The notes under the pieces are model-generated. The model saw only the letters and a list, made by a program, of their open reading frames with translations, was not told the origin of the DNA and made no database searches. Source: a virus (taxonomy: Duplodnaviria; Caudoviricetes). Taken from it: DNA of 64,000 bases. Of this stretch, positions 40,361-58,804 are shown in pieces (position 1 is the first letter of the stretch; every line of letters begins with the position of its first letter). Location: the IMG/VR virus record IMGVR_UViG_3300022917_000008, positions 1 through 64,000 of that record; one strand, given 5' to 3'. The position numbers and the translations under genes were made by a program.

Positions 40361-40429
40361 AACGATTGATTTAAAAATGAGGAGGAAGGCTGGGACCCTC
40401 CTCCTCTATATTACAAAGCAGAGACAGGA

Positions 40430-41371
40430 CTATGATTGAGGCTGTGCTTCAATAGACCTTTCACCTGCTTCCCTGGCTCTCTGAGCCTTGGTTTCTTCAT
40501 CCACCTCATTTGCCTCAGCTGTAGGTGCAGTCCTTGTAGGTTCAGGCCTTGGTCTCAGCAGGTTGCTGGTATAACCAGGCCTTCTGTTCTGCAAGCCTTC
40601 CTGTGCAGGCACACCAGCAGGTGATCCAGGCAGTGTTGGGACACTAATACCAGCTTTAGCCATAGCAGCACGTACAGAGGAACCTGTTATAGTGTTGTTA
40701 TGAGTAATGATGATATCTTCATCCCACATCTTGCCTGTCTTGGGATCATCCATACCTTCAACAGACAGGTGCCTGTTAGCATAGATTTTGTGCTCCACAC
40801 CCTTGGTGTCAGTGTAGATCAGCAGATCACCACCATTACCAGCAGTCTTGGGCCTCTGTTCCCCAGGTGTCTTGTCCTTGTTGACCCATGTGCGGCCTAC
40901 AAAGCTGTCCTCCTCTACAATCTTGCTCTTCAGTTCTTTGCCCTTGAGGTCAATGAACCTGTAAAGCAGTGGGCCACCAGGCTGACCAGGCTCACCATCA
41001 AAAGTGAGCCATCCCTGATACTTCACACCTTCAATTACAGTGACAGCCTCTCCAACCTCTTCCCAGGTCTTGATGAACCCATCTCCAATGGCCTTCATAG
41101 TGCTGTAATTCATCCAGGTAACCCTTTTCCTGGGACCTGTATTGAATGCACTGTGTCCAGCCATTGTCACTGCAAGCAGCCCACTCTGGTTACCCAGGGG
41201 TTGTGGAAACAGCTGTTCCAGCTGAAGCTCCAAAGTTTGCTTGTCTGCTCCCACTGTCCTGATCCTACTGACCAATACAGGGGTGATGGGTTCTGAATTA
41301 GCCACTTTGGCTCCCTCAGGCAGGTTCAGTACTCTGACCTGTGTCTGAGGCATTGATTGTGTTGTTTGCAT
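40430..41371 (-). CDS. Hypothetical protein with a disordered C-terminus
   Basis: ORF track; followed by a terminator hairpin at ~40380-40406. Confidence 0.75.
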   Translation of the reverse strand: MQTTQSMPQTQVRVLNLPEGAKVANSEPITPVLVSRIRTVGADKQTLELQLEQLFPQPLGNQSGLLAVTMAGHSAFNTGPRKRVTWMNYSTMKAIGDGFIKTWEEVGEAVTVIEGVKYQGWLTFDGEPGQPGGPLLYRFIDLKGKELKSKIVEEDSFVGRTWVNKDKTPGEQRPKTAGNGGDLLIYTDTKGVEHKIYANRHLSVEGMDDPKTGKMWDEDIIITHNNTITGSSVRAAMAKAGISVPTLPGSPAGVPAQEGLQNRRPGYTSNLLRPRPEPTRTAPTAEANEVDEETKAQRAREAGERSIEAQPQS

Positions 41372-41426
41372 TTTGATGCGTTTTTAAGTTAATAAATGTT
41401 TACATGCCCTTATAATGAGTAGCCCA

Positions 41427-41681
41427 TTAGGATTCCTGGATGTTAACCTCCAGTCTTCTTCTGTGAGCCACCAAAAGCTTATGAATAGAGTCTAGCAGCC
41501 TGAAACAGTTCTCCTTTGTATCAGGTTTTCCCCTAAATGCTCTAGTTCTTAAGTAGTCTTTTCTCTTTTCCCTATATGCTAAGGTGGGAACATAGGTCCT
41601 CTTACCATCTGTATGCACCAGCAAAGTGCCACCACCTTTGGTTTTGTATGCTTTCAGGACGGCCATAATAGTATTGTACAA
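41427..41681 (-). CDS. Small basic hypothetical protein
   Basis: ORF track. Confidence 0.5.
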   Translation of the reverse strand: MYNTIMAVLKAYKTKGGGTLLVHTDGKRTYVPTLAYREKRKDYLRTRAFRGKPDTKENCFRLLDSIHKLLVAHRRRLEVNIQES

Positions 41682-41792
41682 TGTAGTGGAGAATCTTCTT
41701 CAGAAAAAGATAGGGGAGTGTGGAGAGAAGCAGCTCTCCCTTCCACAAAGAAAGCTGTCAGCAAACATGTGGGAGTTCTCCCCTACCTAGTA

Positions 41793-43814
41793 TTATAAGA
41801 CTAACTCCTTTACAGGTTGGTACCTGTTTGAGGCATGCAGAGTCTTCAATGGCAAGAATGCATCAATGATGTCCAGATCATGGATGTTGGTGAACACCTG
41901 ATTCAAGACACCCATATTACATCCTCCAAAGTACATGATATTGGGAATATCCTGGAACTTCTTCCCATCTCCTACAGAGCCCTCCTTGACATCCCATATA
42001 ACAGTAACACCTTCCCATCCAAACCATTGCCTCATCTTGTTCTGGAACTCAAGGAAGCTTGATGTTGGACTATAAGAGCTATTGAACTCACCATCAGACA
42101 TGGCCAGTATGACCTTGTACCTGTTGATCATATCAATCCTCTGTGATGAGAATGCAGGCTCTTCATCTACCCATATCTTTAGTGCATCAGGTATTGCACT
42201 AAAGTTGGTACTACCATGTGGAGTACCAATGTACTTGGATATATTACTGAGATTCCATGAGAATGGCTTAGTCCTATCAACTAGTACATCAACAGTTGTG
42301 ACCTTAGTTGACATAAACTTGTTTCTCCCATTGGTCTCTGACTTAGTACCTGCAGCTACAACATCAGCTGAGGAACCAAACCTTACCAGGAATTCTCCTG
42401 CTTCAGCATCAGGGTTCTTCAGCAAGAATACTGTAGTGGCTAGCTGACAAAGTGCATTGGCACTGAATTCACTACCCTTGTGACTAACAGCTCTCATAGC
42501 CATAGACCCTGAGATGTCAGATGCTACAAGTACAGGTACCTGTAGTATAATCTTCTCAAGCAGGCTAAATGCCTTGACATCCATTTCTGCAGGAGTAAGT
42601 TTCCTGCTTGCAATCTCTGCAATGAGGTCAATGAGAACATCCCCAGCTACATTCACCTTAGCAGCCTTTTGGACTTGCTGAAGTTCCTTAGTGGTCATCT
42701 TCTCCTTTTCCTCAGTTGTGAGTGATGCAAGCTTGGTTTGGGCCTTCTGCTTGTCTGCCAGCCATTGGATGTACACAGCACCACAGTTCTCCCCAGACTT
42801 AAGTTTCCACTTATCCCTGGGTGAAAGTGTTCCTGCTTTGTCCTTGCTACATATCCTGCAGGCTACCCTATACCTTGCCTCAGAAGGCAATGTGTCTAAC
42901 CAATCCATAAACTGAGTCTTGTCCATGAATGTTACACTCCTGGGATCATCCAGATGTGCACTAAACTTAACAGCCTCAGTTTCAGACAGGTAGGTTTTCC
43001 TAAACTGCCTGTAACCCTCGAAATGCAAACCACCCTTCATCTTGGTGATCTTCCAGTCCATCTTGGCAGACAATGCCTTGATGAAATCAATCACCCAAGC
43101 ATCCTTCTGCTTTGTGTGCTCTTTCTTCTCTTTCTTCACTGTGATGGAATCACCCACCTTGGCATCAGCATACTTCTCATTCTTCTTGAATGCCTTGATG
43201 TTCTTGTCAGTAATAACATACTTGCGTATCCTACTACTGTTTGGTACATGGGGTAACCACCTGGCCCACAGCATCTTTTCATTCTCTGTGGTAGTAGTTG
43301 CCTTTAGTACCTTAGTGATGTAATCAGTGACAGGGTTAATGCCTACATCCAGCTTCAGAACTTCCTGTAGTGTACCTTTGTACCTATCAGTCTTCAGCTG
43401 GTAAAACATGATACCCCCCAAATTGTAATACTCTCCTATGATTGGTAGGAAAGTATAGAACTGCACTGGAGCCCTTTCAAGCATCCATTTTAAGCAGTAC
43501 ATAAACACACGTCTCTTACTCTGACCACCAGTGTCAGGTGTCTTGATACCTCTCCTACGGAAGACATTGTGTTCCCTATTGCTCATATCCCCTAGTGAGA
43601 ATACAAGAACATAGAACAACTCTTTCTTCTCCTTAGTGTTGCATTCACTCCATGCAGCGTCAAGGTACCTGTAAACCTGTTGCTGAGTGACTGTAGTATC
43701 TGATAACTTGTTGCCCTGTTGAAACAAGTCCAGTGTACTACTCATCTTGTAGAAAGGATTACTCTCCACAAGCTTTGATGTCTTAGCAGCCATAATTGAT
43801 CCACTCATTGACAT
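41793..43814 (-). CDS. Ro60/TROVE-like protein (DUF2828-type helical domain plus C-terminal vWA)
   Basis: N-terminal SSTLDLF...AAW.E...F.L.D...GGQSKRRVF resembles DUF2828; vWA MIDAS SDISGSM, STNF, SDGEF, VIWDV; directly downstream of the RNA island. Confidence 0.7.
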   Translation of the reverse strand: MSMSGSIMAAKTSKLVESNPFYKMSSTLDLFQQGNKLSDTTVTQQQVYRYLDAAWSECNTKEKKELFYVLVFSLGDMSNREHNVFRRRGIKTPDTGGQSKRRVFMYCLKWMLERAPVQFYTFLPIIGEYYNLGGIMFYQLKTDRYKGTLQEVLKLDVGINPVTDYITKVLKATTTTENEKMLWARWLPHVPNSSRIRKYVITDKNIKAFKKNEKYADAKVGDSITVKKEKKEHTKQKDAWVIDFIKALSAKMDWKITKMKGGLHFEGYRQFRKTYLSETEAVKFSAHLDDPRSVTFMDKTQFMDWLDTLPSEARYRVACRICSKDKAGTLSPRDKWKLKSGENCGAVYIQWLADKQKAQTKLASLTTEEKEKMTTKELQQVQKAAKVNVAGDVLIDLIAEIASRKLTPAEMDVKAFSLLEKIILQVPVLVASDISGSMAMRAVSHKGSEFSANALCQLATTVFLLKNPDAEAGEFLVRFGSSADVVAAGTKSETNGRNKFMSTKVTTVDVLVDRTKPFSWNLSNISKYIGTPHGSTNFSAIPDALKIWVDEEPAFSSQRIDMINRYKVILAMSDGEFNSSYSPTSSFLEFQNKMRQWFGWEGVTVIWDVKEGSVGDGKKFQDIPNIMYFGGCNMGVLNQVFTNIHDLDIIDAFLPLKTLHASNRYQPVKELVL

Positions 43815-43855
43815 TTGGTTTTTAGCATTTCTCGAAATGGGTTAAAGACATAGAT

Positions 43856-43922
43856 ACTCACTAATGTTGATCAATTACAAGTTGATTGCTTTTGCAAAGC
43901 ATTGATTTGATTCTAAGTGAGT
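43856..43922 (-). ncRNA. Motif RNA 1: minimal Y-like RNA carrying a Thr(UGU) anticodon stem-loop
   Basis: ACTCACTTAGAAT...ATCAA-CTTGTAA-TTGAT...TTAGTGAGT. Confidence 0.7.
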
Positions 43923-44001
43923 GAAGAAGTTAGTGTTAAGCTTGTCTCTCGCTACATGGCCTTTGCAGGGTTATTATGTAGACGTTTGCACTTAACACTT
44001 G

Positions 44002-44121
44002 TGTAGGGGATGGGATTCGAACCACATACATACGTCCTCCAAAAGGAATTGTATAAGTTATTCTAAGTAGTGTAATATACACTACTAATACTACGTGCTC
44101 TACCAATTGAGCTACCCCTAC
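44002..44121 (-). tRNA. Motif RNA 2: tRNA-Gln(UUG)-like RNA with a ~46-nt motif-containing insert in the 5' anticodon stem
   Basis: GTAGGGG/CCCCTAC acceptor, GCTC-AATTGGTA-GAGC D arm, CGT[insert]CC-TTTTGGA-GGACG, TTCGAAT T loop. Confidence 0.7.
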
Positions 44122-44395
44122 AAAATAGGAGTTCCTCCATAGAAAATGGAGGAACTCATAATGTCCTTAAAAACAACCTGTTGCAGAACCAAGCCTTGGC
44201 CATTTCAGCCAATACTTGTTTTTTGAGCAATATTGCTCGCTCTTGGAGGGAGATACAATCCCCTTCCAAGACTGGTAGTGAGCTGTGTCTAGTCTAACAC
44301 CTAGTCACCTGCCTACTAACATAGTTTGACAGTTACAATAGAAAAAGCCCCACATAGATATGTAGGGCCTTTATCAAAATTAACTGTAGGAACAG

Positions 44396-44514
44396 TTGGG
44401 GGACTTGGAATCGAACCAAGGACTATTCCTTATGATGGAATAATTGTTGTTGATGGATTATAAGTAGGTGTACCTACTAAGTAACTAATTGTGATACCAC
44501 TTCACCATCCCCCA
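44396..44514 (-). tRNA. Motif RNA 3: tRNA(CAU)-like RNA with a motif hairpin inserted between the D arm and anticodon arm
   Basis: TGGGGGA/TCCCCCA, GTGA-AGTGGTA-TCAC, TTAG-TAGG-TACA-CCTA-CTTATAAT insert, ATTCC-ATCATAA-GGAAT, CTTGG-TTCGATT-CCAAG. Confidence 0.75.
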
Positions 44515-44521
44515 ATATAGA

Positions 44522-44582
44522 GACTCACTAATTGTTAATCTGGTGTTCCACTTAAGGAACTAGGTTGGATTCTAAGTGAGTC
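44522..44582 (-). ncRNA. Motif RNA 4: minimal Y-like RNA with one internal hairpin
   Basis: GACTCACTTAGAAT...GTTCC-TTAAGT-GGAAC...TTAGTGAGTC. Confidence 0.65.
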
Positions 44583-44591
44583 AAGAAATTA

Positions 44592-44711
44592 AGTCCTCTA
44601 ACTTATTTTTGGATTGATTAAGAATCAATTGCCTAACCATTTGGCTACTGTGGATTGCTCCATAGACAGGATTCGAACCTGTATTATTTGTTAAAGTATT
44701 CTAAGAGGACT
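44592..44711 (-). ncRNA. Motif RNA 5: circularly permuted tRNA-Lys(CUU)-like RNA closed by the motif stem
   Basis: AGTCCTCTTAGAAT..T arm ACAGG-TTCGAAT-CCTGT, acceptor CTATGGA-GCAA-TCCACAG, D arm, ATTGA-TTCTTAA-TCAAT..TTAGAGGACT. Confidence 0.85.
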
Positions 44712-44716
44712 ATTTG

Positions 44717-44791
44717 TGGAGAAAGTAAGACTCGAACTTACCTCCCTTGCTTATTTAAGGCAAGCCTGTAACCACTCCAGGGCATTTCTCC
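44717..44791 (-). tRNA. tRNA-like gene with a 9-nt anticodon loop (undetermined, possibly UAA)
   Basis: GGAGAAA/TTTCTCC, CTTGC-CTTAAATAA-GCAAG, GTAAG-TTCGAGT-CTTAC. Confidence 0.6.
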
Positions 44792-44795
44792 AGGG

Positions 44796-44924
44796 ATTTC
44801 ACTAAGTTTAGTTGCCTATTTTCAAGTAGGTGCCTGACCACACAGGCTTACCCCCCATTAAATCTCCTCACATATGTGGGGGGTTAGGATTCGAACCCAT
44901 TTTTTGAGGTATTCTAAGTGAAAT
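44796..44924 (-). ncRNA. Motif RNA 6: circularly permuted tRNA-like RNA (Phe GAA or Ser UGA, ambiguous)
   Basis: ATTTCACTTAGAAT..GG-TTCGAAT-CC..CCCCCCA-19nt-TGGGGGG, GCCTG-TGTGGT-CAGGC, CCTA-CTTGAAAA-TAGG..TTAGTGAAAT. Confidence 0.8.
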
Positions 44925-45075
44925 AAAGAACTTGAGTGAGCTTGGCCAAGCTGTATTATTCCCCTACACTTTTACAGTAGCACTGAAGCTTTTACAAAAA
45001 AGGCCATATCTTCTTTAGGCCCTAGGGCTCTAGTCTAACTATTAAGTACAGACCTTGTTAACACTCACTCTTTTG

Positions 45076-45158
45076 TGTTGGTGGGAGGGGTTACACCTCC
45101 ATGCCTTGCGGCGCTTTGACATTTAATCGCAGTGTGTCTATATTTCCACCACACCAAC
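45076..45158 (-). tRNA. Degenerate type II (Leu-like) tRNA
   Basis: GTTGGTG/CACCAAC acceptor, GTGGAA..AGACAC D arm, GCC-GCAA-GGC variable arm, poor anticodon stem, non-canonical T loop. Confidence 0.5.
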
Positions 45159-45192
45159 AAGTACTGTGCAAACATACAACAATAAACTGAAA

Positions 45193-45392
45193 CCCACTAA
45201 TTTTTCTTCTTTTTTGACATAAAAGTGCTCACCACTGAACTTCTCCCCCTAGTTGAAATATAGTAGGCCTATGGAAATAAGCCTACTTGAAACATCCTTA
45301 GAAGCGCGAGCCACGAAGTGCCCCAGAGATGGGGACTTTGTAGAGCAGGGGGAGCCAGAGTCGAACTGGTATTTGTATGTATTCTAAGTGGG
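45193..45392 (-). ncRNA. Motif RNA 7: circularly permuted tRNA-Asp(GUC)-like RNA with a ~95-nt structured acceptor linker
   Basis: CCCACTTAGAAT..CCAG-TTCGACT-CTGG, TCCCCCT-G...AGGGGGA, GTTC-AGTGGT-GAGC, CTTTT-ATGTCAA-AAAAG..TTAGTGGG. Confidence 0.8.
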
Positions 45393-45474
45393 CTAAAGAG
45401 TTTAAAAGAAGGGTGTAGAAACACCCTTCGAGGTGTTAAGTAACCCCAAAAGGGGCTTTACTTATGAAAAAAGG

Positions 45475-45575
45475 TGTGGAGAGGAGGATTTGAACCTCCA
45501 TGAATGTCTTGCAACATTCCCAGCTATAGTCCAGGGTCCAGCCTATAGCCTGCTCTACTATTGGCATACCTCCAC
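45475..45575 (-). tRNA. tRNA-like RNA with an enlarged anticodon arm and long variable arm
   Basis: GTGGAGG/TCTCCAC, GGCTATAG-13nt-CTATAGCT, GAATGT-TGCAAG-ACATTC, GGAGG-TTCAAAT-CCTCC. Confidence 0.55.
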
Positions 45576-45584
45576 ATATGTATA

Positions 45585-45803
45585 TCAGTCACTTATATCC
45601 TCATATATAGTAGCTGATAAAGCTATTATTGATAGTACTATTAATAATGCTATTGAAACCCATGCAGGTAGGTACAATATGGCACATGCTATTATACCAG
45701 CTATCAAAGCCATTACAACCAATATGGCTAGGGCTATGCCTACACTTTCTGCTGCCTTACGTGTATCCATCTGCTTCCTCCTTGTATTTGTCTCTGTACA
45801 CAT
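45585..45803 (-). CDS. Small membrane protein with two TM segments
   Basis: ORF track; probable start at MDTRK. Confidence 0.6.
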   Translation of the reverse strand: MCTETNTRRKQMDTRKAAESVGIALAILVVMALIAGIIACAILYLPAWVSIALLIVLSIIALSATIYEDISD

Positions 45804-46266
45804 TCCTTAGTATGGATAGGATTCTTGCATTAGGCTTTGTGCTTGGATTGAGAGACCTTGCAGTAAAGTAGTCAATGTCTGCCCAATCATTGATAAATTG
45901 AGCAACTGCACCACTTCTTTTGACCCCAGCAGCACAATGCACTACACATACATCTGCATGGCTATTCTGCTCTATAAAGGCCAAAATAGCCTTTCCCTGC
46001 TCCTCACTCATGGGAACTACAGAAATGTACTCTCTTTTGTCACGACCCAATAAAGGCACCTGTAATGGCTCATCAACATCATCAAATAGTAGTCTTAGAA
46101 CATTTGGATGGTCTTTTTGGAACCAGTGGGGCATTCTTAGCAGGTCTTGCTCTCCTATTATCTCAATGAAGCAAGCCTTGTTCTTTAGGCTAACATTTTC
46201 ATCATTAAGATGTTCCCTAGCTACCATTGCTCCAAACTGATTCCATGATAATGCAAGTGCTATCAT
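45757..46266 (-). CDS. Protein tyrosine / dual-specificity phosphatase-like protein
   Basis: VHCAAGVKRSGA CX5R motif, FDD loop, PN..I. Confidence 0.9.
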   Translation of the reverse strand: MIALALSWNQFGAMVAREHLNDENVSLKNKACFIEIIGEQDLLRMPHWFQKDHPNVLRLLFDDVDEPLQVPLLGRDKREYISVVPMSEEQGKAILAFIEQNSHADVCVVHCAAGVKRSGAVAQFINDWADIDYFTARSLNPSTKPNARILSILRNVYRDKYKEEADGYT

Positions 46267-46432
46267 CTTTCAGTGTCTTTATAAACATCATAAGATACAG
46301 TGAGGGCAATGGAACTAGCTAGTACCCACCACATATATTCACTGTCATGCTGAATTACCAGTAATATTGTGTTAAGTATAACAGACAGCCCGTTTAGTAT
46401 TACAGCAGCTAAGGCAGCCCAATGTAATGCTC

Positions 46433-46663
46433 TCATTTCTTACCTCCTAATAGCATTATCAAGCCTGTAGCAACACCCAGTCCTATCCATATAGATAGAG
46501 ACAAGACAGTACTAAAGGCAATAACCCATAAGAATATAACCATAACAGCATGAACACTAGGTTCACTTATTCCAGCTGTTATCCAGTGGATGATATGGTT
46601 AGCTGTACTAAAGCACATCCACATTGAAAAGATTGCTATTGCAATCGCAATAATGTATCTCAT
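46433..46663 (-). CDS. Small membrane protein
   Basis: Two hydrophobic segments. Confidence 0.6.
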   Translation of the reverse strand: MRYIIAIAIAIFSMWMCFSTANHIIHWITAGISEPSVHAVMVIFLWVIAFSTVLSLSIWIGLGVATGLIMLLGGKK

Positions 46664-47085
46664 TTCTCCAGTAACTTGTAATAGCCTTTGCAGTGATCAC
46701 ACTGACTAAGGCACTTTGACTTCCCCTCTACATTCCTCTGACAATAGACATATCTATTGAATTTGGCAATACCCAAGGAGAGTTTAATAGTCTTCGTATA
46801 GGCAACTAGGCTATGCACATACAGATCAGGTCTGAATATGTGCATAAAATCCCCTAAGGAGTAGGTTCTTCCTTTGCAGAAAAATCTAGCCTTTCCCCTT
46901 AGTTTAACATTCATTCTCCACATCCATCCATCTATTGGATCAGTATGTGGGCTAAGAACAGTCTTAGCTGGATACTTGAGTATATACCCATCAAATCCAA
47001 CCCTTCCTATTCTGAGGTAAAGGAAGCACCACTTATAGTAGATAACTCCCTGTTGTCTGCCTGGTATCCACCTAAATAGTTTCAT
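46660..47085 (-). CDS. 2OG-Fe(II) oxygenase-like protein
   Basis: ILKYP...HTDP...R.NV...FRPD..VHS (HxD...H triad). Confidence 0.65.
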   Translation of the reverse strand: MKLFRWIPGRQQGVIYYKWCFLYLRIGRVGFDGYILKYPAKTVLSPHTDPIDGWMWRMNVKLRGKARFFCKGRTYSLGDFMHIFRPDLYVHSLVAYTKTIKLSLGIAKFNRYVYCQRNVEGKSKCLSQCDHCKGYYKLLEK

Positions 47086-47342
47086 ATCCTGTGTTAAAAA
47101 GAGAGCCCCATAGTAGAAACTAAGGGCTGCTAACGATTGCTTGCCATATTAAAAAGAGTTAATCCTGTCTACCTCCAATAGTAGAATAGTCCAGCAAAAC
47201 TTAATGCTCAGCCCTTGTGAAAGGGTTTTCTCAAACTATCTCCCTTATCAAGCTTGCCTTGGATAGCCTACATTCCTTTTGGGTGTCCTGTAGTGCTTGC
47301 CTAAGAGCAGGACTAAAGAATTTTAGGAGCAATCAAAATGTC

Positions 47343-47621
47343 TTACTGTTGTGCGTTAGCATGAGCATGTTCCTCCTGCTGAGTAGCCTCCTCCTGGGTG
47401 TTCTCCTCAGCATGTATTTCATTCACAGACTCATAGAACATGTTTGTCCTGTTCCTACAGGCCTGTTTGGCATCCTCACTCAGGTCCTCAAAGGGCACCA
47501 TAAGGTTCTCACCATTTACATCCACACTCTTGTGGCCCTGTCCCTCTTTGTCAGAGACCCACTTCTTGTGTTGGCGTGCTGATACTTTCTCAATGTCAGG
47601 TAATTGCAAGTTGTTCTTCAT
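47343..47621 (-). CDS. Small protein resembling a RyR-repeat domain
   Basis: H..W...K...G......LMVPFEDLSE..K pattern. Confidence 0.55.
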   Translation of the reverse strand: MKNNLQLPDIEKVSARQHKKWVSDKEGQGHKSVDVNGENLMVPFEDLSEDAKQACRNRTNMFYESVNEIHAEENTQEEATQQEEHAHANAQQ

Positions 47622-47670
47622 ACTTGTTCTGTTTTTATGAAAGTGAATAAATAAGCTTTGTTAAAATAGG

Positions 47671-47789
47671 AACTCACTAAACTTTTTAAGATGGGAGTCG
47701 AACCCATTACCCATTGATTAGAAGTCAATTGCTCTACCAAATGAGCTACTTCTCCAGATTAAGGAGATTTGATGTATTCTAAGTGAGTT
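47671..47789 (-). ncRNA. Motif RNA 8: tRNA-Arg(UCU)-like RNA permuted within the acceptor stem
   Basis: AACTCACTTAGAAT..TCTCC-TTAATCT-GGAGAAG-TA-D arm-ATTGA-CTTCTAA-TCAAT-GGGTA-ATGGG-TTCGACT-CCCAT-CTT..TTAGTGAGTT. Confidence 0.85.
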
Positions 47790-47866
47790 AAGAAAGTATG
47801 TAGGGGCGTGCTTCCAGCTACACCACAACTTGAAGGGCCTTGACCCTTGCCTCCCCTACAATAATA

Positions 47867-48442
47867 TTACATCTTCCTAAAGGAAGTCTTCTTGTCAAAC
47901 CCATGACTAACTACCTTCTCAATGTCAGTCCTTGTATCCTTGATAATAGGTTCCCTAGTTAAGAACTCTACTATCCTAAGGTACGCATCTTCAGGAGGCA
48001 CTAACCTACCAAACTGAAAGTCTGCTAGCTTTACATTCTTAGTACCTTCCCCATCAAATGTATACCTAGGTAGTAGCACCACAGGACAGTTTAGCTTCTC
48101 ATTCACATCTGTTGGTTTGTTATGTCCAGTAAGGTACTCACGCTCAGTAGGGAGTTTGTATGCATTCTCCTTATCCACAAACTTTCTTAGCACTAGGACT
48201 TCATCCCCTATGTATACCTTCCCATTGTAACAACACACCTTGTACGTTGTTCCACAAAAAGCTATTCCATAATAGTAATACCCAGGTAGGTCAAGATACT
48301 CAGGCCTGTATATGCCACTTTTCACCCATGAGTGCTGTGGTGTTTCAGTTTCACATACTCTCTCATATACTACCTTAGGGTCAATACCATATTTACCAAT
48401 AAGGAAGTCATAGTAGTCCTTGAAGTTAGATACGATCTTCAT
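47867..48442 (-). CDS. Conserved-looking hypothetical phage protein
   Basis: MKI.S.FKDYYD N-terminus and HGFDKKTSFR C-terminus. Confidence 0.75.
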   Translation of the reverse strand: MKIVSNFKDYYDFLIGKYGIDPKVVYERVCETETPQHSWVKSGIYRPEYLDLPGYYYYGIAFCGTTYKVCCYNGKVYIGDEVLVLRKFVDKENAYKLPTEREYLTGHNKPTDVNEKLNCPVVLLPRYTFDGEGTKNVKLADFQFGRLVPPEDAYLRIVEFLTREPIIKDTRTDIEKVVSHGFDKKTSFRKM

Positions 48443-48990
48443 GACACAGTTTTTGCTTGTCCAAACAGTAGTTGGTCTAGATGATCCTGCATTTCCCTGT
48501 ATTCATTCCCTAGTTGCATCTCACTGAGGAACTGATTGTGCTCCCTCATGTGCATACTAAGCTTGCTGTTCTTGAACATGACACCATGCCTTACATTGGC
48601 TATCTTGTCACAAAGCTTGACAAACTTAGCACCAGGAGTTTCCCTTATGTTCTGCCAGTATATAGGTGGATGTCTTTCATTCCTATTCCTACCAGGATAC
48701 TCAGTAACAGCTAGAATGACTTCAGCTACCCATATAGCATCTTCATTAGTGTGTCCTTCAAGCAGGCTAATGTGTTGAATCACATCACTGTAGTTGGTTC
48801 TTGCATCTTCATACAGGTCATGGCCTGCAATGGCATACCTGTACCTCCAAAACTCTGCTTTGGGCACCAGATGTTGGAACTCCTTAGCTACTTGTAAGGC
48901 AAGCCTCAGATGATACTCATAAGGCAGATAGTCCTCATACATGTGATTTGTTATCTCATGCCTGTGAATGGCCCATGTCACAAAGTCCAT
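48439..48990 (-). CDS. HD-domain protein, SpoT/Mesh1-like (p)ppGpp hydrolase family
   Basis: PYEYHL, GHDLYED, V.AVTE, VKLCDKIAN; start moved to the ATG at 48990 because the upstream GTG lies inside motif RNA 9. Confidence 0.8.
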   Translation of the reverse strand: MDFVTWAIHRHEITNHMYEDYLPYEYHLRLALQVAKEFQHLVPKAEFWRYRYAIAGHDLYEDARTNYSDVIQHISLLEGHTNEDAIWVAEVILAVTEYPGRNRNERHPPIYWQNIRETPGAKFVKLCDKIANVRHGVMFKNSKLSMHMREHNQFLSEMQLGNEYREMQDHLDQLLFGQAKTVS

Positions 48991-49016
48991 AAATGGTTGT
49001 TTTAAGGTTAAAAATA

Positions 49017-49129
49017 AGCTCACTAATTCTTTTTTTGGCACACCTAGGGGGATTGGATACCCCCACTTCCAGGGCTAGCCTGGCGTCTTATTTAGACTAT
49101 AGATATAAGTAAAGTATTCTAAGTGAGCT
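49017..49129 (-). ncRNA. Motif RNA 9: complete CCA-ending tRNA-like cloverleaf enclosed by the motif stem
   Basis: AGCTCACTTAGAAT..ATATCTA-TA-GTCT-AAATA-AGAC-G-CCAGG-CTAGC-CCTGG-AAGT-GGGGG-TATCCAAT-CCCCC-TAGGTGT-G-CCA..TTAGTGAGCT. Confidence 0.75.
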
Positions 49130-49153
49130 GTTGATATGCATGATACTATGTAG

Positions 49154-49260
49154 GGGGGAAGGTGGGATTTGAACCCACTATTACAAAAACCAAATTTTGC
49201 TTTTTACCAATGTTTGAAGGTATTCTAAGAGGTCAACCTCTAACAAGATTAACTTCCCCC
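49154..49260 (-). ncRNA. Motif RNA 10: tRNA-like RNA with the motif hairpin in the D-arm region
   Basis: GGGGAAG/CTTCCCC, TTAG-AGG-TTGA-CCT-CTTAGAAT, CAAAA-TTTGGT-TTTTG, GTGGG-TTCAAAT-CCCAC. Confidence 0.7.
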
Positions 49261-49475
49261 ATTTAGACCCTTCTGGTGGGTCAGCCCGTCCATTCAATGC
49301 CTTTCTGGTATATGTCTCACCACCCTGCTTCCAGTTGCACATACTGTATTGAGTGTAGTCTATTGTGGCGACCCAATACTATGTGAGGCAAAGAGATTCC
49401 ACCTCCTCCTGGACTAGGACTGGAGGTCATTTTGCAGAGTACCACCGTCCAAAAGTACACGTACAGTGTGAACCT

Positions 49476-50057
49476 TTATCTTTGTCTTTGAGTCTGCCTC
49501 AAAGGTACTTTTAGTGCCTCATCATACATCTTAGACAAGTCATTAATGTGTATATGAGCACTAATGCCCCAGTTACCATTAACCCTTAATGTAAGATACT
49601 CACTCTTCAGCCAATCAGGGAACTCCATATTACCCCTTGTCTTATTACACTTCTTGCATGCACTAATAAGGTTCTCTTCAACTGAAGCACCCATCTTCTC
49701 CCAAAGGACAATATGGTCTACAGTCAAGGGTACTTGGTTATTACCACAATACTGACAAGTGTAGTTGTCTCTCCTGAATACATTCCAGGATATAGTTTGT
49801 TCAATGTTTCTTTGAGACTTTCTAAGTACTACCTTGTTGAGTCCCATAACCCCCAATGTATCAAGCTGATACAAGAGGGTCTTCCACTCTTCATGAGTGG
49901 GTTGTATGATGGATAGAGGTACTAGACCAGTCTCTGGAAAAAGCATTAGTTCTGCTTCCTGTCCATTAGCCAGTAACATACCACTTATCTCTAGCTTATC
50001 ACCATACTTCAATAACTCCTCTGGCCTAAATGGCCCAGTCAAATTCTTCATAGACAC
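49476..50057 (-). CDS. HNH endonuclease
   Basis: RRDNYTCQYCG...TVDHI...NLISACKKCNKTRG. Confidence 0.9.
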   Translation of the reverse strand: MSMKNLTGPFRPEELLKYGDKLEISGMLLANGQEAELMLFPETGLVPLSIIQPTHEEWKTLLYQLDTLGVMGLNKVVLRKSQRNIEQTISWNVFRRDNYTCQYCGNNQVPLTVDHIVLWEKMGASVEENLISACKKCNKTRGNMEFPDWLKSEYLTLRVNGNWGISAHIHINDLSKMYDEALKVPLRQTQRQR

Positions 50058-50073
50058 AGTTTGTTTAGAGTAG

Positions 50074-50179
50074 CTGGGGAACCCATATTGCTATGGGCAC
50101 TTGGATTTGGACTCCAAGGTTCAGTGTAATGTTATTCTAAGTAAGGAAGGGTCTTACTAACACTTAATGAATTCCCCAG
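50074..50179 (-). ncRNA. Motif RNA 11: cloverleaf with a motif arm, Trp(CCA)-like anticodon arm and GNRA arm
   Basis: CTGGGGAA/TTCCCCAG, TTAG-TAAG-ACCCTTC-CTTA-CTTAGAAT, TTGGA-GTCCAAA-TCCAA, CCCATA-GCAA-TATGGG. Confidence 0.7.
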
Positions 50180-50193
50180 TTTCCCTGATTGTT

Positions 50194-50265
50194 GTTTGGT
50201 GACAGTCACTAATATCTTAAAACCATATCTAAGTTGTTGTGTTTATTCTAAGTGTACTACCAAAC
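50194..50265 (-). ncRNA. Motif RNA 12: minimal Y-like RNA
   Basis: GTTTGGT-AGTACACTTAGAAT...TTAGTGACT..ACCAAAC. Confidence 0.65.
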
Positions 50266-50275
50266 AAAAAAGAAG

Positions 50276-50476
50276 TTATATGCTTATCACATCAATGCCT
50301 ATTCCAATGAAGCCTGGTTCCAAGTCTTCTGCAAGCCTTTGGAACTCAGAGTGAACTGTTTGGCCCTTCTTGCCAATTCCAACAAAGGAGTCACTGACTG
50401 TAACATTGCGAAGTGGTATCTTTTTGATAGTACCCTTCACTTCAATTCTCTTAAATATCACCAGTTTCTTTGGCAT
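50276..50476 (-). CDS. Small hypothetical protein
   Basis: ORF track. Confidence 0.55.
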   Translation of the reverse strand: MPKKLVIFKRIEVKGTIKKIPLRNVTVSDSFVGIGKKGQTVHSEFQRLAEDLEPGFIGIGIDVISI

Positions 50477-50482
50477 AAAACA

Positions 50483-50983
50483 TTAATCCTCATCATCATC
50501 AAAGTCCTTCAGTCCAGCAAGTTCTGCTTCAGCCCTTGCTCTTTGCTCCTGTGGTGTAAGAGCAGCCTCAATACTCTTGTGTAGGTCCTTAGCCCTTGCT
50601 CTCTTGTCATGAGCATAGGCATCCCAGTTCTTCTTCCTGATGGTGAGCCTGAAGAATGTCAACCATTTCTCAGCCTCCACCTTGTTGATCATCAGTTCCC
50701 CAGTGTTGCTAAACTCAGGATCATGATTGGCTGCAGCCCCTTTCAGTGCTGATGCCATCTTCTGCAGGCTGGCCACATTTGCTGCACAAAGGTCCTGCAC
50801 AGTCATTGGGGATGCTTGCCCAAATGTCCTTGTGGCAGGATATGTGATATTCCTATCCACACACATACCAATGAAGGCATACCTCTGCTGAGTTTCTTCT
50901 GCAGTCAGTTTGGCTGGCAGCCCTGGCTTAACAGGAACTGGGGCCTGAGCTACAGGTGTAGCATTTGCTTGTCCATCATTCAT
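50483..50983 (-). CDS. Hypothetical protein
   Basis: ORF track. Confidence 0.7.
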   Translation of the reverse strand: MNDGQANATPVAQAPVPVKPGLPAKLTAEETQQRYAFIGMCVDRNITYPATRTFGQASPMTVQDLCAANVASLQKMASALKGAAANHDPEFSNTGELMINKVEAEKWLTFFRLTIRKKNWDAYAHDKRARAKDLHKSIEAALTPQEQRARAEAELAGLKDFDDDED

Positions 50984-51044
50984 TTTATTCAGATTTTGAT
51001 TGTTTCAAAAACAAGGGGAGGACCATTCTCACCCTCCCCTTTAT

Positions 51045-52724
51045 TCAACTTTTGTTAAACAAGTACAGAGTACCTGCAGTCAGACATAATATGCCTGAGT
51101 TGCAGATTCTGAGTACTGACTGCTCAGTCACAAACCTACATGCTATAGTTGCTATCTTTGCAAGGTCAGACTTTCTGTATACATCCATAGCACCATTTGT
51201 TGGTATGTATAGATGGTCTCCTCTTTCAGCAATGATACACATCCCATTTAGCTTCGGGCCCAACTCTACTCTCATACCCTTGACAGCAAATAAGAAGTGC
51301 TCTACTTGGCTGCCCAATTTACTCTCAATGACACCATATTTACCACTAGGGCATAAATACACATCAGTTGCATTAGTAGCTGTTCTCAGTGTTGTCATAT
51401 GACCCAACGAGATGTCAATGATAAACTTACTACCAACTACAGTCTGGACTATGCCAGTTTGCACCACAACTGATTTAGTGTAGATAGAACCCATTGTAGA
51501 GGATATGTGTCCATTGAGGATTTGGTCTACTGCAATAATAATGAAGGAATCACTTCCACTATCAAAGTATATGCTCTTCCCATTACTTGTGTGACCAAAT
51601 GAACCTGATGGGATGAGAAAGTTCTTCACTTCCTCCTCTCCTTGTTGGGTGCAATTGTAGAGTTTACTGTACCTTGTTATTACAACATTGGTATTACCGA
51701 GGATACATCCTTCAGCCTTAGTTGATACATGGTGCTTAGCATATGCACCTGGGCCTGTACTTCTGTAGATTGTGAATGTATCAGTATCTTTCCTTGTGTA
51801 GAAGAAGCTGTCTGTTGCATCAAAGTCTTCCACATCAAGATTGATTGTTCTTACTGTAAGCTCACCTTCCTTAATAGCCTGTATGAATGAGGATACTTTG
51901 CCTACTGGTACATGAGCATTAGTATATACTCCTCCACTCACATTAGGCACAAACCTCTCAGCATCCTGGAATATCTTAATGAACTGGTCAGTGACTCTTC
52001 TGTCACTAAATGGTTCATAGAATGCAGGGATTACCAAATCAGGATCATTTGATAATACTGAGATTTTCCTGATCACTCTGTCCTCAAACTTCTGTACCTT
52101 CCTGTGTATACCCTTGTAAGGGTGTAGATGAGTGAACATCTGGAAGACCATAACTGAAAGTGCATAGTAATCAGACTTGTCATCAATGTGGTTGTACAAC
52201 CAATCCCTTATCTCAGGCAACATCACACCTGAGTGTGGTCTGCTCTTAGTCTGGAATGAGTCCACATCAATGAAATAGACCTCAGCCTTGTTGGACACAA
52301 ATATGTTATAGGGGTTGAAGTCCCCTATCACAATGCCCAACTTATGTGCCTGGATCATGCTGGCTATCATACCAGCATATATATCTTGCTTGACCTTCTC
52401 TGTGAACCCTGCCTTAGTTGCAGTGGGCTTAGAGAAGATAGTTGCAAGTAGGTGCAGTTTATGAGTATCTAAGTACTTCATAGACAGACCTTTAAGAAAA
52501 CCTTGTTTGTCGTAAAACAACTCCAATGGCTTAATGAAGTTGTCAGGGAGTACCATAAGCTCCTGCAGTGTCTGTAGGGATAGATTGCCTCTCTGGTGAT
52601 ACACTTTGATGACTTGATGGGAATCTTTTGGATGCTCATACAATGTACCTTCACCCCCTCTATTGATCTCCTTGTTTGTATCAACAGACAAAGCTATCTT
52701 CCCATAACCATCATATAGTGTCAT
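51045..52724 (-). CDS. Ser/Thr protein kinase (TerY-P triad type)
   Basis: RGGEGTLY, VIKVY, IGDFNPYNI, FIDVDS, D.YAL, HPYKG. Confidence 0.9.
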   Translation of the reverse strand: MTLYDGYGKIALSVDTNKEINRGGEGTLYEHPKDSHQVIKVYHQRGNLSLQTLQELMVLPDNFIKPLELFYDKQGFLKGLSMKYLDTHKLHLLATIFSKPTATKAGFTEKVKQDIYAGMIASMIQAHKLGIVIGDFNPYNIFVSNKAEVYFIDVDSFQTKSRPHSGVMLPEIRDWLYNHIDDKSDYYALSVMVFQMFTHLHPYKGIHRKVQKFEDRVIRKISVLSNDPDLVIPAFYEPFSDRRVTDQFIKIFQDAERFVPNVSGGVYTNAHVPVGKVSSFIQAIKEGELTVRTINLDVEDFDATDSFFYTRKDTDTFTIYRSTGPGAYAKHHVSTKAEGCILGNTNVVITRYSKLYNCTQQGEEEVKNFLIPSGSFGHTSNGKSIYFDSGSDSFIIIAVDQILNGHISSTMGSIYTKSVVVQTGIVQTVVGSKFIIDISLGHMTTLRTATNATDVYLCPSGKYGVIESKLGSQVEHFLFAVKGMRVELGPKLNGMCIIAERGDHLYIPTNGAMDVYRKSDLAKIATIACRFVTEQSVLRICNSGILCLTAGTLYLFNKS

Positions 52725-53436
52725 ACCTTATGATTGTCAGATCATCATTGAGTGTCATGCCTTCCTTGCTCATTATAGTAATCTTGCGATTCAACATAGT
52801 GTTGATATGCATCTGGTCTTTGTTCTCCAATAAGAAGCTAATGCACTCTTCCAATGGTCTGTGGGCATGCTTAATAGCATCAATCCCATCAGTACATATG
52901 GACCAGTTCCTAACTCCTGTATAGAAGAATCCAGGCCTACCAGCAAATATAGAAGGACTAGGGTCTTCTTCCTCAATGTATGCAATGTAACTAGGGGCAT
53001 TATCCTCTCCTGAAGTCACCCTTTCATACTCTCCATCCACATATAACATACCATCTCCTAAGAACTTGACTGCCAGACTCTTAGTTTCAGTGTTGTATAT
53101 GGCAAGGACTACAGTAGAAAGAGATTCAAGGATGGTCAGTCCACTTACTTCTCTTAGGGACGCTGCATAGGTACATAGGACAGCACACAAGTCATCCAGA
53201 ACCCCTACCTGGCTCTTAAATCCCTTGGACATACTTTGCTCACACAGGAACCAAGATGTCTGTATTGTCCTCCTAAGGGCATATGCATGCATTTGGGATG
53301 CATAGTGGGACCTAATCCCATCACTACACCCATCAAACACTGCAGCAATGACCCAAGGCCCTCTTTGCTCTAAATGGTAAGCATCCTCACAAAAGTCCTG
53401 ATGGGTTGTTGCCCTCTTGTTCAGTACATGGATCAT
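52711..53436 (-). CDS. PP2C-like phosphatase
   Basis: CEDA, VFDGCS, GDG, CTDG, DDLTI. Confidence 0.9.
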   Translation of the reverse strand: MIHVLNKRATTHQDFCEDAYHLEQRGPWVIAAVFDGCSDGIRSHYASQMHAYALRRTIQTSWFLCEQSMSKGFKSQVGVLDDLCAVLCTYAASLREVSGLTILESLSTVVLAIYNTETKSLAVKFLGDGMLYVDGEYERVTSGEDNAPSYIAYIEEEDPSPSIFAGRPGFFYTGVRNWSICTDGIDAIKHAHRPLEECISFLLENKDQMHINTMLNRKITIMSKEGMTLNDDLTIIRYDTI

Positions 53437-53603
53437 TTAAGTGTTTTTTGTAAATCTTCAATCACTCCCCTAGCCTTATGGTAGGGGCAATTCTGCCTCT
53501 CATAATACCTCCCAAACATAAAGGCTATGAAAGCTATCCCCAGTGTAACCACAACTGTGGATAGTTGTTTAAGCACCCACCCAGGTTCTTGGTTAGCTGC
53601 CAT
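53433..53603 (-). CDS. Small single-TM protein (56 aa, MAANQEPGW...)
   Basis: Read by hand; overlaps the stop/start of both flanking genes. Confidence 0.6.
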   Translation of the reverse strand: MAANQEPGWVLKQLSTVVVTLGIAFIAFMFGRYYERQNCPYHKARGVIEDLQKTLK

Positions 53604-54298
53604 TAGAATGCAATTGTTTGGTTAGAGGCAGATTTGCTTACAGAAGCACTGATGAAGCCAATCATCTTCCTAATCTCCTTACCACTCTGGCCTACCACAG
53701 CAAGATGCTTGAAGTGCATATCCTGCTGTGCCTTGGTGAATGAAGAAGCATTATTACCTACACCAAAGAGTATGGTGTCAAAGGCCATAATGTTCCTTTC
53801 TTCCTTGGCCAGGTTATCCAGAATACTGGCTACTTCACTGGCCCTAGTAGAAGACACATTGTTCTCACCATCAGTGATGACAAAGATCAGTACCTTCACA
53901 TTGATGCCAGTCTTTTCCAGCTGCTCCCTGTATTCCACAGTGGATTCCAGTGCCTTCTTGGCACCTGCAAACAGTGCAGTGGAACCATCCCTGGGCTTGA
54001 AGTGCATTGCCCTGGGGTCCAACTGAGAAATGGGAACATATCCACTCTTCTCATAGACCTTTTCCCCAAACTCAAGCACTTTGATCATGATTCTGGGAGC
54101 TACATGAGACTTCTGCATTTCCTCAGTGAATGTGGAGAATGCCTCATTGAGTTCCTTCTCAAAGCCCTGTACTGAGCCTGATATGTCCATGGCAACACAC
54201 ATGAGGATGATCTCATCTTCCTGTACGTTGCTTGGATCAAAGTTGGTGATGGTGTAACCTGTACCCATCATACCAAAGTCATATTCTTGTGTGTTCAT
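53603..54298 (-). CDS. TerY-like vWA protein
   Basis: MDISGSV MIDAS motif, GSTALF, VITDGE, GVG. Confidence 0.85.
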   Translation of the reverse strand: MNTQEYDFGMMGTGYTITNFDPSNVQEDEIILMCVAMDISGSVQGFEKELNEAFSTFTEEMQKSHVAPRIMIKVLEFGEKVYEKSGYVPISQLDPRAMHFKPRDGSTALFAGAKKALESTVEYREQLEKTGINVKVLIFVITDGENNVSSTRASEVASILDNLAKEERNIMAFDTILFGVGNNASSFTKAQQDMHFKHLAVVGQSGKEIRKMIGFISASVSKSASNQTIAF

Positions 54299-54393
54299 TT
54301 GCTTCTTTTGTTTGGCTAAATTAACCTTGTTTCAAATTCCCAATCATGGTCCTTAATCCATTGAAACTTTCTGGGACTAACCCCAGGGTTTCT

Positions 54394-55224: not shown

Positions 55225-55251
55225 TTTATTTGTTTGGTTTAATGTATAAGA

Positions 55252-55510: not shown

Positions 55511-55516
55511 ATAAGG

Positions 55517-55828: not shown

Positions 55829-55911
55829 TGTATGTTGTTTTTTGTTTGGCTTAATAAAGGAGGTCTTACATAGACATGCAAGGCCTGTAATTTATACCCT
55901 TAAACTAAAAG

Positions 55912-58799: not shown

Positions 58800-58804
58800 T
58801 ACTC

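What the first reader, a model, noticed from the sequence alone, without database searches (positions are those of the whole stretch)
47671..47789. tRNA-Arg(UCU) permuted in the middle of the acceptor stem
The D, anticodon, variable and T arms are canonical, but only CTT follows the T arm. The missing CTCC sits at the 5' side, pairing with GGAG through a short loop. Joining CTT to CTCC restores a perfect 7-bp GGAGAAG/CTTCTCC acceptor. This is a different permutation point from the other elements, so the motif can be attached at several sites while preserving the tRNA fold. It also raises the possibility of excision and ligation to a true tRNA.
Basis: seen in the sequence. Interest (0 to 1): 0.8.

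Follow-up and report, generated by a model that had tools for sequence, protein, structure and literature searches.

The report
Capped tRNA look-alike on Ro60-type handle
This 119-base phage gene encodes an arginine-tRNA-shaped RNA whose acceptor arm is closed off by a hairpin and whose two ends form a conserved "handle"; it is most likely a docking partner (a Y-RNA-like tRNA mimic) of the Ro60-like protein encoded next door, not a scrambled tRNA gene that is cut and re-joined.

Summary
On the minus strand of 47671-47789 lies a canonical D arm, UCU anticodon arm, variable loop and T arm. Only CUU follows the T arm. The missing CUCC sits upstream and pairs with G1-G4 through a 7-nt loop. Joining them in silico gives a sequence that ARAGORN calls tRNA-Arg(UCU).

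The cap hairpin is real. The one orthologue found (L118) keeps it through a C-G to A-U double change, while the loop is rewritten.

The splicing idea is not supported:
- The complete 156-kb phage has a normal tRNA-Arg(UCU) elsewhere.
- It has no detectable RNA ligase or splicing endonuclease.
- Homologous bodies in related phages carry six different anticodons, and acceptor stems of 0 to 7 bp with no upstream complement.

The element's two ends form a 7-bp helix plus CUUAGAAU/UUA-G. This "handle" is shared by 12 RNAs here and by hundreds beside one protein in other phages. That protein (41793-43814) folds as Ro60 (Z 16.3).

Best reading: a Y-RNA-like tRNA mimic tethered to a Ro60-like protein, and a new topological variant of that kind. 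This scan has already reported the same kind of system on this genome and on many other phages.

The parts
47783..47789 (-). Handle helix, 5' strand (AACUCAC); probable 5' end region of the RNA
   Evidence: Pairs with 47671-47677 over 7 bp. Own-partner pairing across the family far exceeds permuted partners.
47776..47782 (-). Conserved handle motif UUAGAAU (with the preceding C: CUUAGAAU), followed by AC
   Evidence: 12 copies on the minus strand between 43.9 and 50.3 kb. Relatives have C-UUACAAU, UUACAAA or UUAUAAU.
47768..47775 (-). 5' single-stranded linker (8 nt, A-rich)
   Evidence: Read. One C>U difference in L118.
47756..47767 (-). Cap: upstream strand UCUCC (47763-47767) and 7-nt loop (47756-47762) that close the end of the acceptor arm
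   Evidence: Compensatory change in L118 (UAUCC/GGAUA), with the loop changed at 6 of 7 positions. Chance 0.4-1.4%.
47688..47755 (-). tRNA body: acceptor 5' strand GGAGAAG, D arm, anticodon arm (UCU), variable loop, T arm, and acceptor 3' remnant CUU
   Evidence: Rfam tRNA 53.8 bits for 47688-47751. Called tRNA-Arg(tct) after the in-silico join. The anticodon stem equals that of the phage's own tRNA-Lys(CUU).
47678..47687 (-). 3' linker (7 nt) and UUA, the partner of the motif
   Evidence: UUA precedes the 3' helix strand in 10 of 12 copies.
47671..47677 (-). Handle helix, 3' strand (GUGAGUU)
41793..43814 (-). Gene of the 673-aa Ro60-like (TROVE ring plus vWA) protein, the proposed partner of the handle
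   Evidence: No Pfam hit. AlphaFold2 pLDDT 80. The 12 best Foldseek matches are all Ro60/Rsr/phage Ro60, best E 1.5e-8. VIA Z 16.3 to 1yvr over residues 28-650, against at most 11.8 for vWA-only chains. It is the only ORF of 30-64 kb shared with all 50 related loci.

Best explanation
The element is a small non-coding RNA of about 119 nt that works like a Y RNA.

Anatomy. Its 5' and 3' ends pair into a 7-bp helix followed by an internal loop (CUUAGAAU opposite UUA-G). This "handle" is the docking site for the phage's divergent Ro60-like protein. Two A-rich single-stranded linkers tether a complete tRNA-shaped module to the handle. In this copy the linkers leave through a nick in the 3' strand of the acceptor stem. 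Three base pairs (AAG/CUU) continue from the T arm. A hairpin made of the 5' linker and G1-A5 stacks on them. The result is a three-way junction that looks like a full 7-bp acceptor arm but has a closed end. The RNA therefore displays elbow, anticodon arm and acceptor shape, yet cannot be aminoacylated as made.

Proposed use. It presents a tRNA-Arg(UCU)-like surface to host proteins that read tRNAs. It either brings them to the Ro60-like particle or soaks them up, for example anticodon nucleases.

Shown here: the anatomy, selection on the cap stem, covariation of the handle, and co-occurrence with the Ro60-like gene.

Inferred: binding of the handle to that protein, absence of splicing, and the tether or decoy role.
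For: 1. Handle. Among 122 motif-plus-T-arm candidates taken without any helix requirement, 77 have a closing helix of 6 bp or more. Partner permutations gave a mean of 20 and a maximum of 29 (200 runs). Closing elements of 7 bp or more: 205 on the Ro60-like gene's strand, 19 on the opposite strand, and 15 with a reversed-motif control. 47 of 50 loci have at least one.
2. Partner protein. It has a Ro60 fold and is the only neighbouring ORF conserved in all 50 loci. Two records found purely through the RNA motif, both 19-24% complete fragments, each encode it within about 1-3 kb of the element.
3. Not needed for decoding. A canonical tRNA-Arg(UCU) exists elsewhere in the genome, and the body is not a copy of it.
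4. Anticodon drift. Six anticodons occur on one class-I body, including UAG and GUA, whose bacterial tRNAs (Leu, Tyr) need a long variable arm by general knowledge.
5. Acceptor is dispensable. 71 non-redundant acceptor-attached elements have 0-9 bp acceptors. L006 has about 1 bp. In L073 and L074 the T arm runs straight into UUA-G.
6. A mirror-image cap (a GAAA-loop hairpin in the 3' linker) occurs in L220.
7. Tagged tRNA-like genes in relatives have odd anticodon loops in 16 of 54 cases, against 17 of 375 untagged ones (Fisher p 1e-7).
8. Precedent. Y RNAs are a 5'-3' stem with a 5'-strand motif in an internal loop plus a tRNA-like module, encoded beside Ro60, also in phages (PMC4201824, PMC12135203).
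Against: - No RNA or binding data, so the transcript ends and the protein-RNA contact are inferred.
- The handle motif is not the published GNCGAAN0-1G / CGAA motif.
- Rfam YrlA gives no hit at E<=1, and Pfam TROVE does not detect the protein.
- Most acceptor-attached relatives (55 of 71) contain ARAGORN-callable tRNAs with 5-7 bp acceptors. RNase P and 3' processing could release these, so in some phages the handle might mark tRNA precursors rather than stable mimics.
- The cap covariation is a single event, inside a 17-nt patch that may have been swapped in as a block.
- Sequences in the counts are related, so the p-values overstate independence.
Confidence: 0.68

Rival explanations
1. It is a true permuted pre-tRNA. 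Both linkers are cut at the tRNA boundaries. CUU is ligated to CUCC, by host RtcB for example. RNase P and 3' trimming plus CCA addition then open the cap loop, giving a working tRNA-Arg(UCU).
For: The join restores a perfect cloverleaf that ARAGORN calls tRNA-Arg(tct), in both the window and L118. All tertiary-contact bases are canonical (alignment). The cap loop is free to vary, as expected for a discarded segment. A Bacteroides control genome has RtcB.
Against: - A canonical tRNA-Arg(UCU) is already present.
- No ligase or splicing endonuclease was found in the complete phage genome.
- There is no bulge-helix-bulge. The putative cut sites lie 7 nt before the UUA and 8 nt after UUAGAAU here, and these linkers range from about 0 to 16 nt in the other copies and relatives, so no fixed ruler fits.
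- Homologues in L006/L174, L073 and L074 have no acceptor to restore.
- The anticodon changes freely on the same body.
Confidence: 0.07
2. It is a Y-RNA-like particle that is further processed. RNase P cuts 5' of G1 inside the cap loop and CCA is added to the trimmed upstream strand, as shown for M. smegmatis YrlA. This would leave a two-piece, nicked tRNA held together by the handle and still bound to the Ro60-like protein.
For: A 7-bp acceptor stacked on a 5-bp T stem is the main RNase P determinant. M. smegmatis YrlA, with a 7-bp closed acceptor, is cleaved by RNase P in vitro and gains CCA in vivo (PMC4201824). The cap stem is conserved while the loop is not.
Against: Salmonella YrlA and Deinococcus Yrn1 are not cleaved (PMC4201824). 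After cleavage the upstream strand would be held by only 4-5 bp plus the 7-bp handle. Nothing here tests it.
Confidence: 0.17
3. It is a decayed tRNA pseudogene next to expression signals. TAGAAT would be a -10-like promoter box, and the hairpins would be terminators or chance.
For: CTTAGAAT lies 10-40 nt upstream of ordinary tRNA genes in 30 of 32 unrelated phage loci, where it is most simply a promoter. The cap hairpin scores as a weak terminator-like site on the plus strand.
Against: - The helix strand immediately upstream of the motif covaries with a partner about 100 nt downstream in each copy. A promoter does not need that.
- The motif also sits inside tRNA bodies as a hairpin.
- The cap pairing is kept by a double change.
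- Strand bias is 205 against 19.
- No plus-strand genes are there to terminate.
Confidence: 0.04

Closest known systems
YrlA-type bacterial and phage Y RNAs with Rsr/Ro60 (Chen et al. 2014, PMC4201824; Rfam RF02553)
   Same: Encoded beside a Ro60-type gene on the same strand. The 5' and 3' ends form a stem with a conserved 5'-strand motif at an internal loop. Carries a tRNA-like module with canonical D and T arms and a closed acceptor stem-loop. Several different RNAs per locus.
   Different: The handle motif is CUUAGAAU/UUA-G, not GNCGAAN0-1G. There is no Rfam YrlA hit. YrlA replaces the anticodon arm by the Ro60 stem, whereas this RNA keeps a full anticodon arm and leaves through a nick in the acceptor 3' strand. 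The protein is invisible to Pfam TROVE. There are a dozen partner RNAs in at least five topologies.
Deinococcus radiodurans Yrn1 (as described in PMC4201824)
   Same: According to PMC4201824 the order of the T and D arms relative to the 5' end differs from YrlA, and the stem-loop between them takes the anticodon-arm position. The protein-binding stem therefore sits at the acceptor end, as in this element and its relatives.
   Different: Yrn1 has no demonstrated D arm and no separate capped acceptor hairpin. Its Ro-binding helix resembles the metazoan one. I did not examine its sequence here.
Thermus phage phiLo Ro60 with Yrl1/Yrl2 (PMC12135203; PDB 9KOP, 9L5Y)
   Same: A phage-encoded Ro60 with phage-encoded partner RNAs upstream of the gene. 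It is a structural match to the protein here (Z 11.4-12.7).
   Different: The phiLo Yrls were picked by a CGAA motif and are not described as tRNA-shaped. There, a complex with host PNPase was shown.
Circularly permuted and split tRNA genes of Cyanidioschyzon merolae and archaea (reviewed in PMC4090602, PMC3400036)
   Same: Part of the 3' side of the tRNA lies upstream of the 5' side. Leader and trailer pair with each other. A join would restore a cloverleaf.
   Different: Those use a bulge-helix-bulge cut by the splicing endonuclease, are the organism's only gene for that tRNA, and permute at loops. Here there is no BHB and no endonuclease or ligase gene, a canonical duplicate exists, only 4-5 nt are displaced, and homologues cannot be restored.

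Membership tests
Y RNA / YrlA (RF02553) | Encoded next to a Ro60/TROVE protein gene | tested here: met
   The gene at 41793-43814(-) lies 3.9 kb downstream on the same strand. Ro60 fold, Z 16.3, Foldseek E 1.5e-8. It is met at fold level only; Pfam TROVE is negative.
Y RNA / YrlA (RF02553) | Terminal 5'-3' stem with a conserved 5'-strand motif at an internal loop | tested here: met
   A 7-bp helix plus CUUAGAAU opposite UUA-G. Covariation against permuted partners.
Y RNA / YrlA (RF02553) | The Rsr-binding sequence GNCGAAN0-1G (CGAA) | tested here: not met
   The motif is C-UUAGAAU here and C-UUACAAU/A in relatives. Only the AA is shared.
Y RNA / YrlA (RF02553) | Match to the Rfam covariance model | tested here: not met
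   No RF02553 hit at E<=1 in 40000-60000.
Y RNA / YrlA (RF02553) | tRNA-like module with D and T arms | tested here: met
   RF00005 at 53.8 bits, positions 5-66.
Y RNA / YrlA (RF02553) | Physical binding to Ro60 | not testable with these tools
   Needs EMSA or RIP.
Permuted / split tRNA gene | The 3' part is encoded upstream of the 5' part, and a join restores the cloverleaf | tested here: met
   The in-silico join is called tRNA-Arg(tct) in the window and in L118. Only 4-5 nt are displaced.
Permuted / split tRNA gene | Bulge-helix-bulge at the junction | tested here: not met
   Read. The boundaries are followed by unpaired 7-8 nt linkers and a 7-bp helix with an asymmetric loop. There is no 3-nt bulge / 4-bp / 3-nt bulge.
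Permuted / split tRNA gene | Splicing endonuclease and RNA ligase available | tested here: inconclusive
   None in the phage (PF01974, PF01139, PF09414, PF09511). The host is unknown. A Bacteroides control has RtcB.
Permuted / split tRNA gene | Supplies a tRNA not otherwise encoded | tested here: not met
   A canonical tRNA-Arg(tct) lies at genome position 76648-76720.
Canonical tRNA gene (RF00005) | Contiguous 7-bp acceptor stem with free ends | tested here: not met
   The Rfam match stops at model positions 5 and 66, and ARAGORN is silent. 3 bp are contiguous.

The most novel reading that the evidence does not exclude
The element is a genuine permuted tRNA gene of a bacteriophage. The handle (with the Ro60-like protein) directs cutting and RtcB-type re-joining of CUU to CUCC, or RNase P opens the cap to give a two-piece chargeable tRNA. 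Either way the array would be a regulated, protein-gated reserve of tRNAs. This would be the first protein-dependent tRNA permutation or splicing system outside archaea and eukaryotes.
Probability: 0.07. Interest if true: 0.9.

Novelty: new variant of a known kind. Interest (0 to 1): 0.5.

Why it matters
Y RNAs were known to borrow the upper half of tRNA. This copy shows a phage keeping the entire tRNA shape, anticodon arm included, while deliberately closing the acceptor end with a selected hairpin and hanging the whole body on a protein handle through a nick in the acceptor stem.

Three comparative observations suggest that what is selected is the display of tRNA surfaces, not decoding:
- a mirror-image solution in another phage;
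- acceptor-less versions in relatives;
- free exchange of anticodons on one body.

This makes a concrete idea testable: large phages may use Ro60-like particles carrying a panel of tRNA look-alikes to engage or neutralise host factors that read or cut specific tRNAs. It also warns annotators that such genes are neither pseudogenes nor intron-containing or permuted tRNA genes.

Tried and rejected
The 60-66% identical relatives of the protein, which come from Logan assemblies, could therefore not be fetched, and only one true orthologue of the element (L118) was obtained.
- The search for related loci with the single protein found nothing. The alignment A1 was needed.
- tblastn of the protein against cultured-phage records: no match.
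- blastn of the array against phages matched ordinary tRNAs only.
- A pattern for further capped orthologues in IMG/VR: 0 hits.
- The first motif-plus-D-arm pattern returned mostly promoters of ordinary tRNAs. My first loose helix scan of distant loci was dominated by noise, because their motif is UUACAAU rather than UUAGAAU.
- A profile search of PDB sequences with A1: no hit.
- The sigma-70 promoter and terminator scan was uninformative.
- Considered and rejected: known small ribozyme cores (hammerhead, hairpin, twister) as the handle. This was from memory only, with no match, and no Rfam ribozyme hit.
- Considered and rejected: an RNase III leader-trailer stem, because the helix is too short.
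- Considered and rejected: a phage attachment-site remnant, because of the covarying helix and the array context.

Full report
**What is there**

The window is the first 64 kb of a complete 155,657-bp virus record (100% complete). All features of the finding are on the minus strand.

- Rfam's tRNA model matches 47688-47751(-) at 53.8 bits (E 9e-9). It covers only model positions 5-66, so the outer four acceptor pairs are missing.
- ARAGORN reports no tRNA there.

Reading 47789 down to 47671 gives, in order:
1. a 7-nt helix strand;
2. UUAGAAU;
3. an 8-nt A-rich linker;
4. UCUCC;
5. a 7-nt loop;
6. GGAGAAG;
7. U8 A9;
8. a canonical D arm;
9. an anticodon arm with loop CUUCUAA (UCU);
10. a 5-nt variable loop;
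11. a canonical T arm;
12. CUU;
13. a 7-nt linker;
14. UUA;
15. the complementary 7-nt helix strand.

My automatic motif/helix script returned the same boundaries, 47671-47789. Appending the upstream CUCC to CUU in silico gives a sequence that ARAGORN calls tRNA-Arg(tct) with a perfect 7-bp acceptor.

**Is the cap hairpin more than chance?**

- A 4-bp cap at a suitable distance is expected in 1.4% of random leaders of local composition, and a 5-bp cap in 0.4%.
- A scan of metagenome contigs with a 23-nt pattern from the body found one true orthologue, L118:12064-12182.
- L118 is 97-99% identical to the window over the 12 kb upstream.
- Within the element it differs only in one linker base, in the cap stem (C>A on one strand and G>U on the other, so C-G becomes A-U), and in 6 of 7 loop bases.
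- The in-silico join works in L118 too.

So the stem is kept and the loop is free. One caveat applies. This is one event inside a 17-nt patch, and the patch could have been exchanged as a block.

**The handle**

- CTTAGAAT (once CTTATAAT) occurs 12 times on the minus strand between 43.9 and 50.3 kb.
- In 10 of the 12 copies the bases upstream of the motif pair over 5-8 bp with a stretch preceded by UUA.
- The partner lies either 48-191 nt downstream (the helix closes around the RNA) or 13-18 nt upstream (a hairpin inserted into a tRNA body) (sequence).
- The helix sequence differs from copy to copy.

In 50 loci from other phages the motif is C-UUACAAU, UUACAAA or UUAUAAU.

A test that did not require a helix gave clear results. 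Of 122 motif-plus-T-arm candidates, 77 have a closing helix of 6 bp or more. When partners are permuted the mean is 20 and the maximum 29.

Closing elements of 7 bp or more number 205 on one strand, 19 on the other, and 15 for a reversed-motif control. This is an RNA helix, not a promoter. Elsewhere, CTTAGAAT in front of ordinary tRNAs is probably a -10 box.

**The partner protein**

The 673-aa ORF at 41793-43814(-) has no Pfam hit, but it has 38 homologues.

| Test | Result |
|---|---|
| AlphaFold2 model from their alignment | pLDDT 80 |
| Foldseek, 12 best matches | all Ro60, Rsr or phage phiLo Ro60; best E 1.5e-8 |
| VIA-align to 1yvr, residues 28-650 | Z 16.3 |
| VIA-align to vWA-only chains | Z at most 11.8 |

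Among all ORFs of 30-64 kb it is the only one shared with all 50 related loci. 47 of those loci carry at least one handle element on its strand.

The converse also holds. Two records reached only through the RNA motif (L005, L006), both 19-24% complete fragments, each encode this protein within about 1-3 kb of the element.

**tRNA gene or mimic?**

1. The phage has 23 ordinary tRNA genes, including tRNA-Arg(UCU) at genome position 76648-76720. The body here is not a copy of that gene. It is closest to the phage's tRNA-Lys(CUU), with the same anticodon stem.
2. A clade of near-identical class-I bodies carries six anticodons: UCU (window, L118), UAU (L006, L220), UAG (L174), GAU (L005), ACU (L108) and GUA (L187). 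L006 and L174 differ in the element only at that one anticodon base.
3. Among 71 non-redundant elements whose handle closes around an unpermuted body, the acceptor has 0 to 9 contiguous pairs:

| Contiguous acceptor pairs | 0 | 1 | 2 | 3 | 4 | 5 | 6 | 7 | 8-9 |
|---|---|---|---|---|---|---|---|---|---|
| Elements | 1 | 5 | 1 | 1 | 14 | 10 | 21 | 16 | 2 |

   In L073 and L074 the T arm runs directly into UUA-G. L006 and L174 have about one pair and no cap. Nothing could restore those.
4. L220 has a 4-bp remnant extended by a self-contained GAAA-loop hairpin in the 3' linker.
5. Handle-tagged, ARAGORN-callable tRNAs in relatives have abnormal anticodon loops (8-nt or 6-nt loops, A34, UCA) in 16 of 54 cases, against 17 of 375 untagged tRNAs in the same loci (Fisher p 1e-7). 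The sequences are related, so this p-value is generous.
6. No RtcB, Rnl1, Rnl2-type ligase or tRNA-intron endonuclease is detectable in the complete genome. The host could supply RtcB.
7. There is no bulge-helix-bulge. The linkers between handle and tRNA body vary from about 0 to 16 nt among copies and relatives, so a cut at a fixed distance from the handle cannot restore each tRNA.

**Counter-evidence kept in view**

55 of the 71 acceptor-attached relatives contain complete, callable tRNAs. In those phages RNase P and 3' processing could release a tRNA, and the handle could mark a precursor. In this phage, however, every tagged copy is disabled in some way: a capped acceptor, an arm inserted in the anticodon stem, or missing halves.

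**Mechanism proposed (inferred)**

- The RNA is stable as made.
- The Ro60-like protein binds the helix-plus-CUUAGAAU handle.
- Flexible linkers tether a tRNA-shaped module.
- The cap hairpin stacks on AAG/CUU and the T stem, completing a closed acceptor arm.

This follows published Y RNA logic: a terminal stem with a 5'-strand motif at an internal loop plus an effector module, tRNA-like in YrlA (PMC4201824), with phage Ro60 and phage Yrl RNAs recruiting host PNPase (PMC12135203). What the tRNA surface recruits or soaks up is unknown. A secondary possibility is cleavage by RNase P in the cap loop with CCA addition, as shown for M. smegmatis YrlA (PMC4201824).

**Comparison and novelty**

It works like a Y RNA, but it fails two membership tests for YrlA: the GNCGAA motif and the Rfam model. 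It also differs in topology. It keeps a full anticodon arm and exits through a nick in the acceptor 3' strand.

I found no paper on permuted tRNAs in phages or on this system. The scan itself has already reported the array, the protein and other copies on this genome, and similar handle-tagged tRNA mimics beside Ro60-like genes in many other phages. One of those notes led me to the Y-RNA reading. I then checked the fold, the co-occurrence and the canonical tRNA set independently.

**Verdict**

The splicing interpretation is unlikely, at about 7%. The element is a new topological variant of a Y-RNA-like tRNA mimic.

Noticed in passing
window 47795-47861 (-): A stretch of about 66 nt directly upstream of the element is absent from the otherwise 99% identical L118. 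It closes with GUAGGGG/CCCCUAC and contains a D-arm-like run, but its fold is not unusual (z -1.1). It may be an inserted small RNA or a mobile piece.
   Followed up: partly
window 47284-47792 vs L118:12061-12563: Identity to L118 drops from 97-99% upstream to 84% over the last 521 nt, mainly in ORF 47343-47621. The element lies at a mosaic boundary.
   Followed up: no
L006:91-191:- and L174:6404-6504:-: Two elements are identical except for one anticodon base (UAU against UAG) on a body with almost no acceptor stem.
   Followed up: partly
L220:225-338:-: A homologous body has a 4-bp acceptor remnant extended by a CUGC-GAAA-GCAG hairpin in the 3' linker, a mirror image of the cap in the finding.
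   Followed up: partly
L076, L079, L082, L045 and others: Several handle-tagged tRNAs have 8-nt anticodon loops (ARAGORN 'tttg', 'ttct', 'ttgg') or UCA (opal-reading) anticodons. These are recurrent across phages.
   Followed up: no
window 55911-56315 (-): A phage-encoded tmRNA (Rfam 75.6 bits; tag peptide ETEQYLLIK).
   Followed up: no
window 49476-50057 (-) and 51045-52724 (-): An HNH endonuclease ORF sits inside the RNA array, and a protein-kinase/RIO-like ORF lies just upstream of it.
   Followed up: no
window 44002-44121 (-): In the tRNA-Gln(UUG)-like gene the handle hairpin and its linkers (about 46 nt) interrupt the 5' strand of the anticodon stem. Removing them would restore CGUCC/GGACG exactly (read). 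The linker lengths differ from those of the finding.
   Followed up: partly
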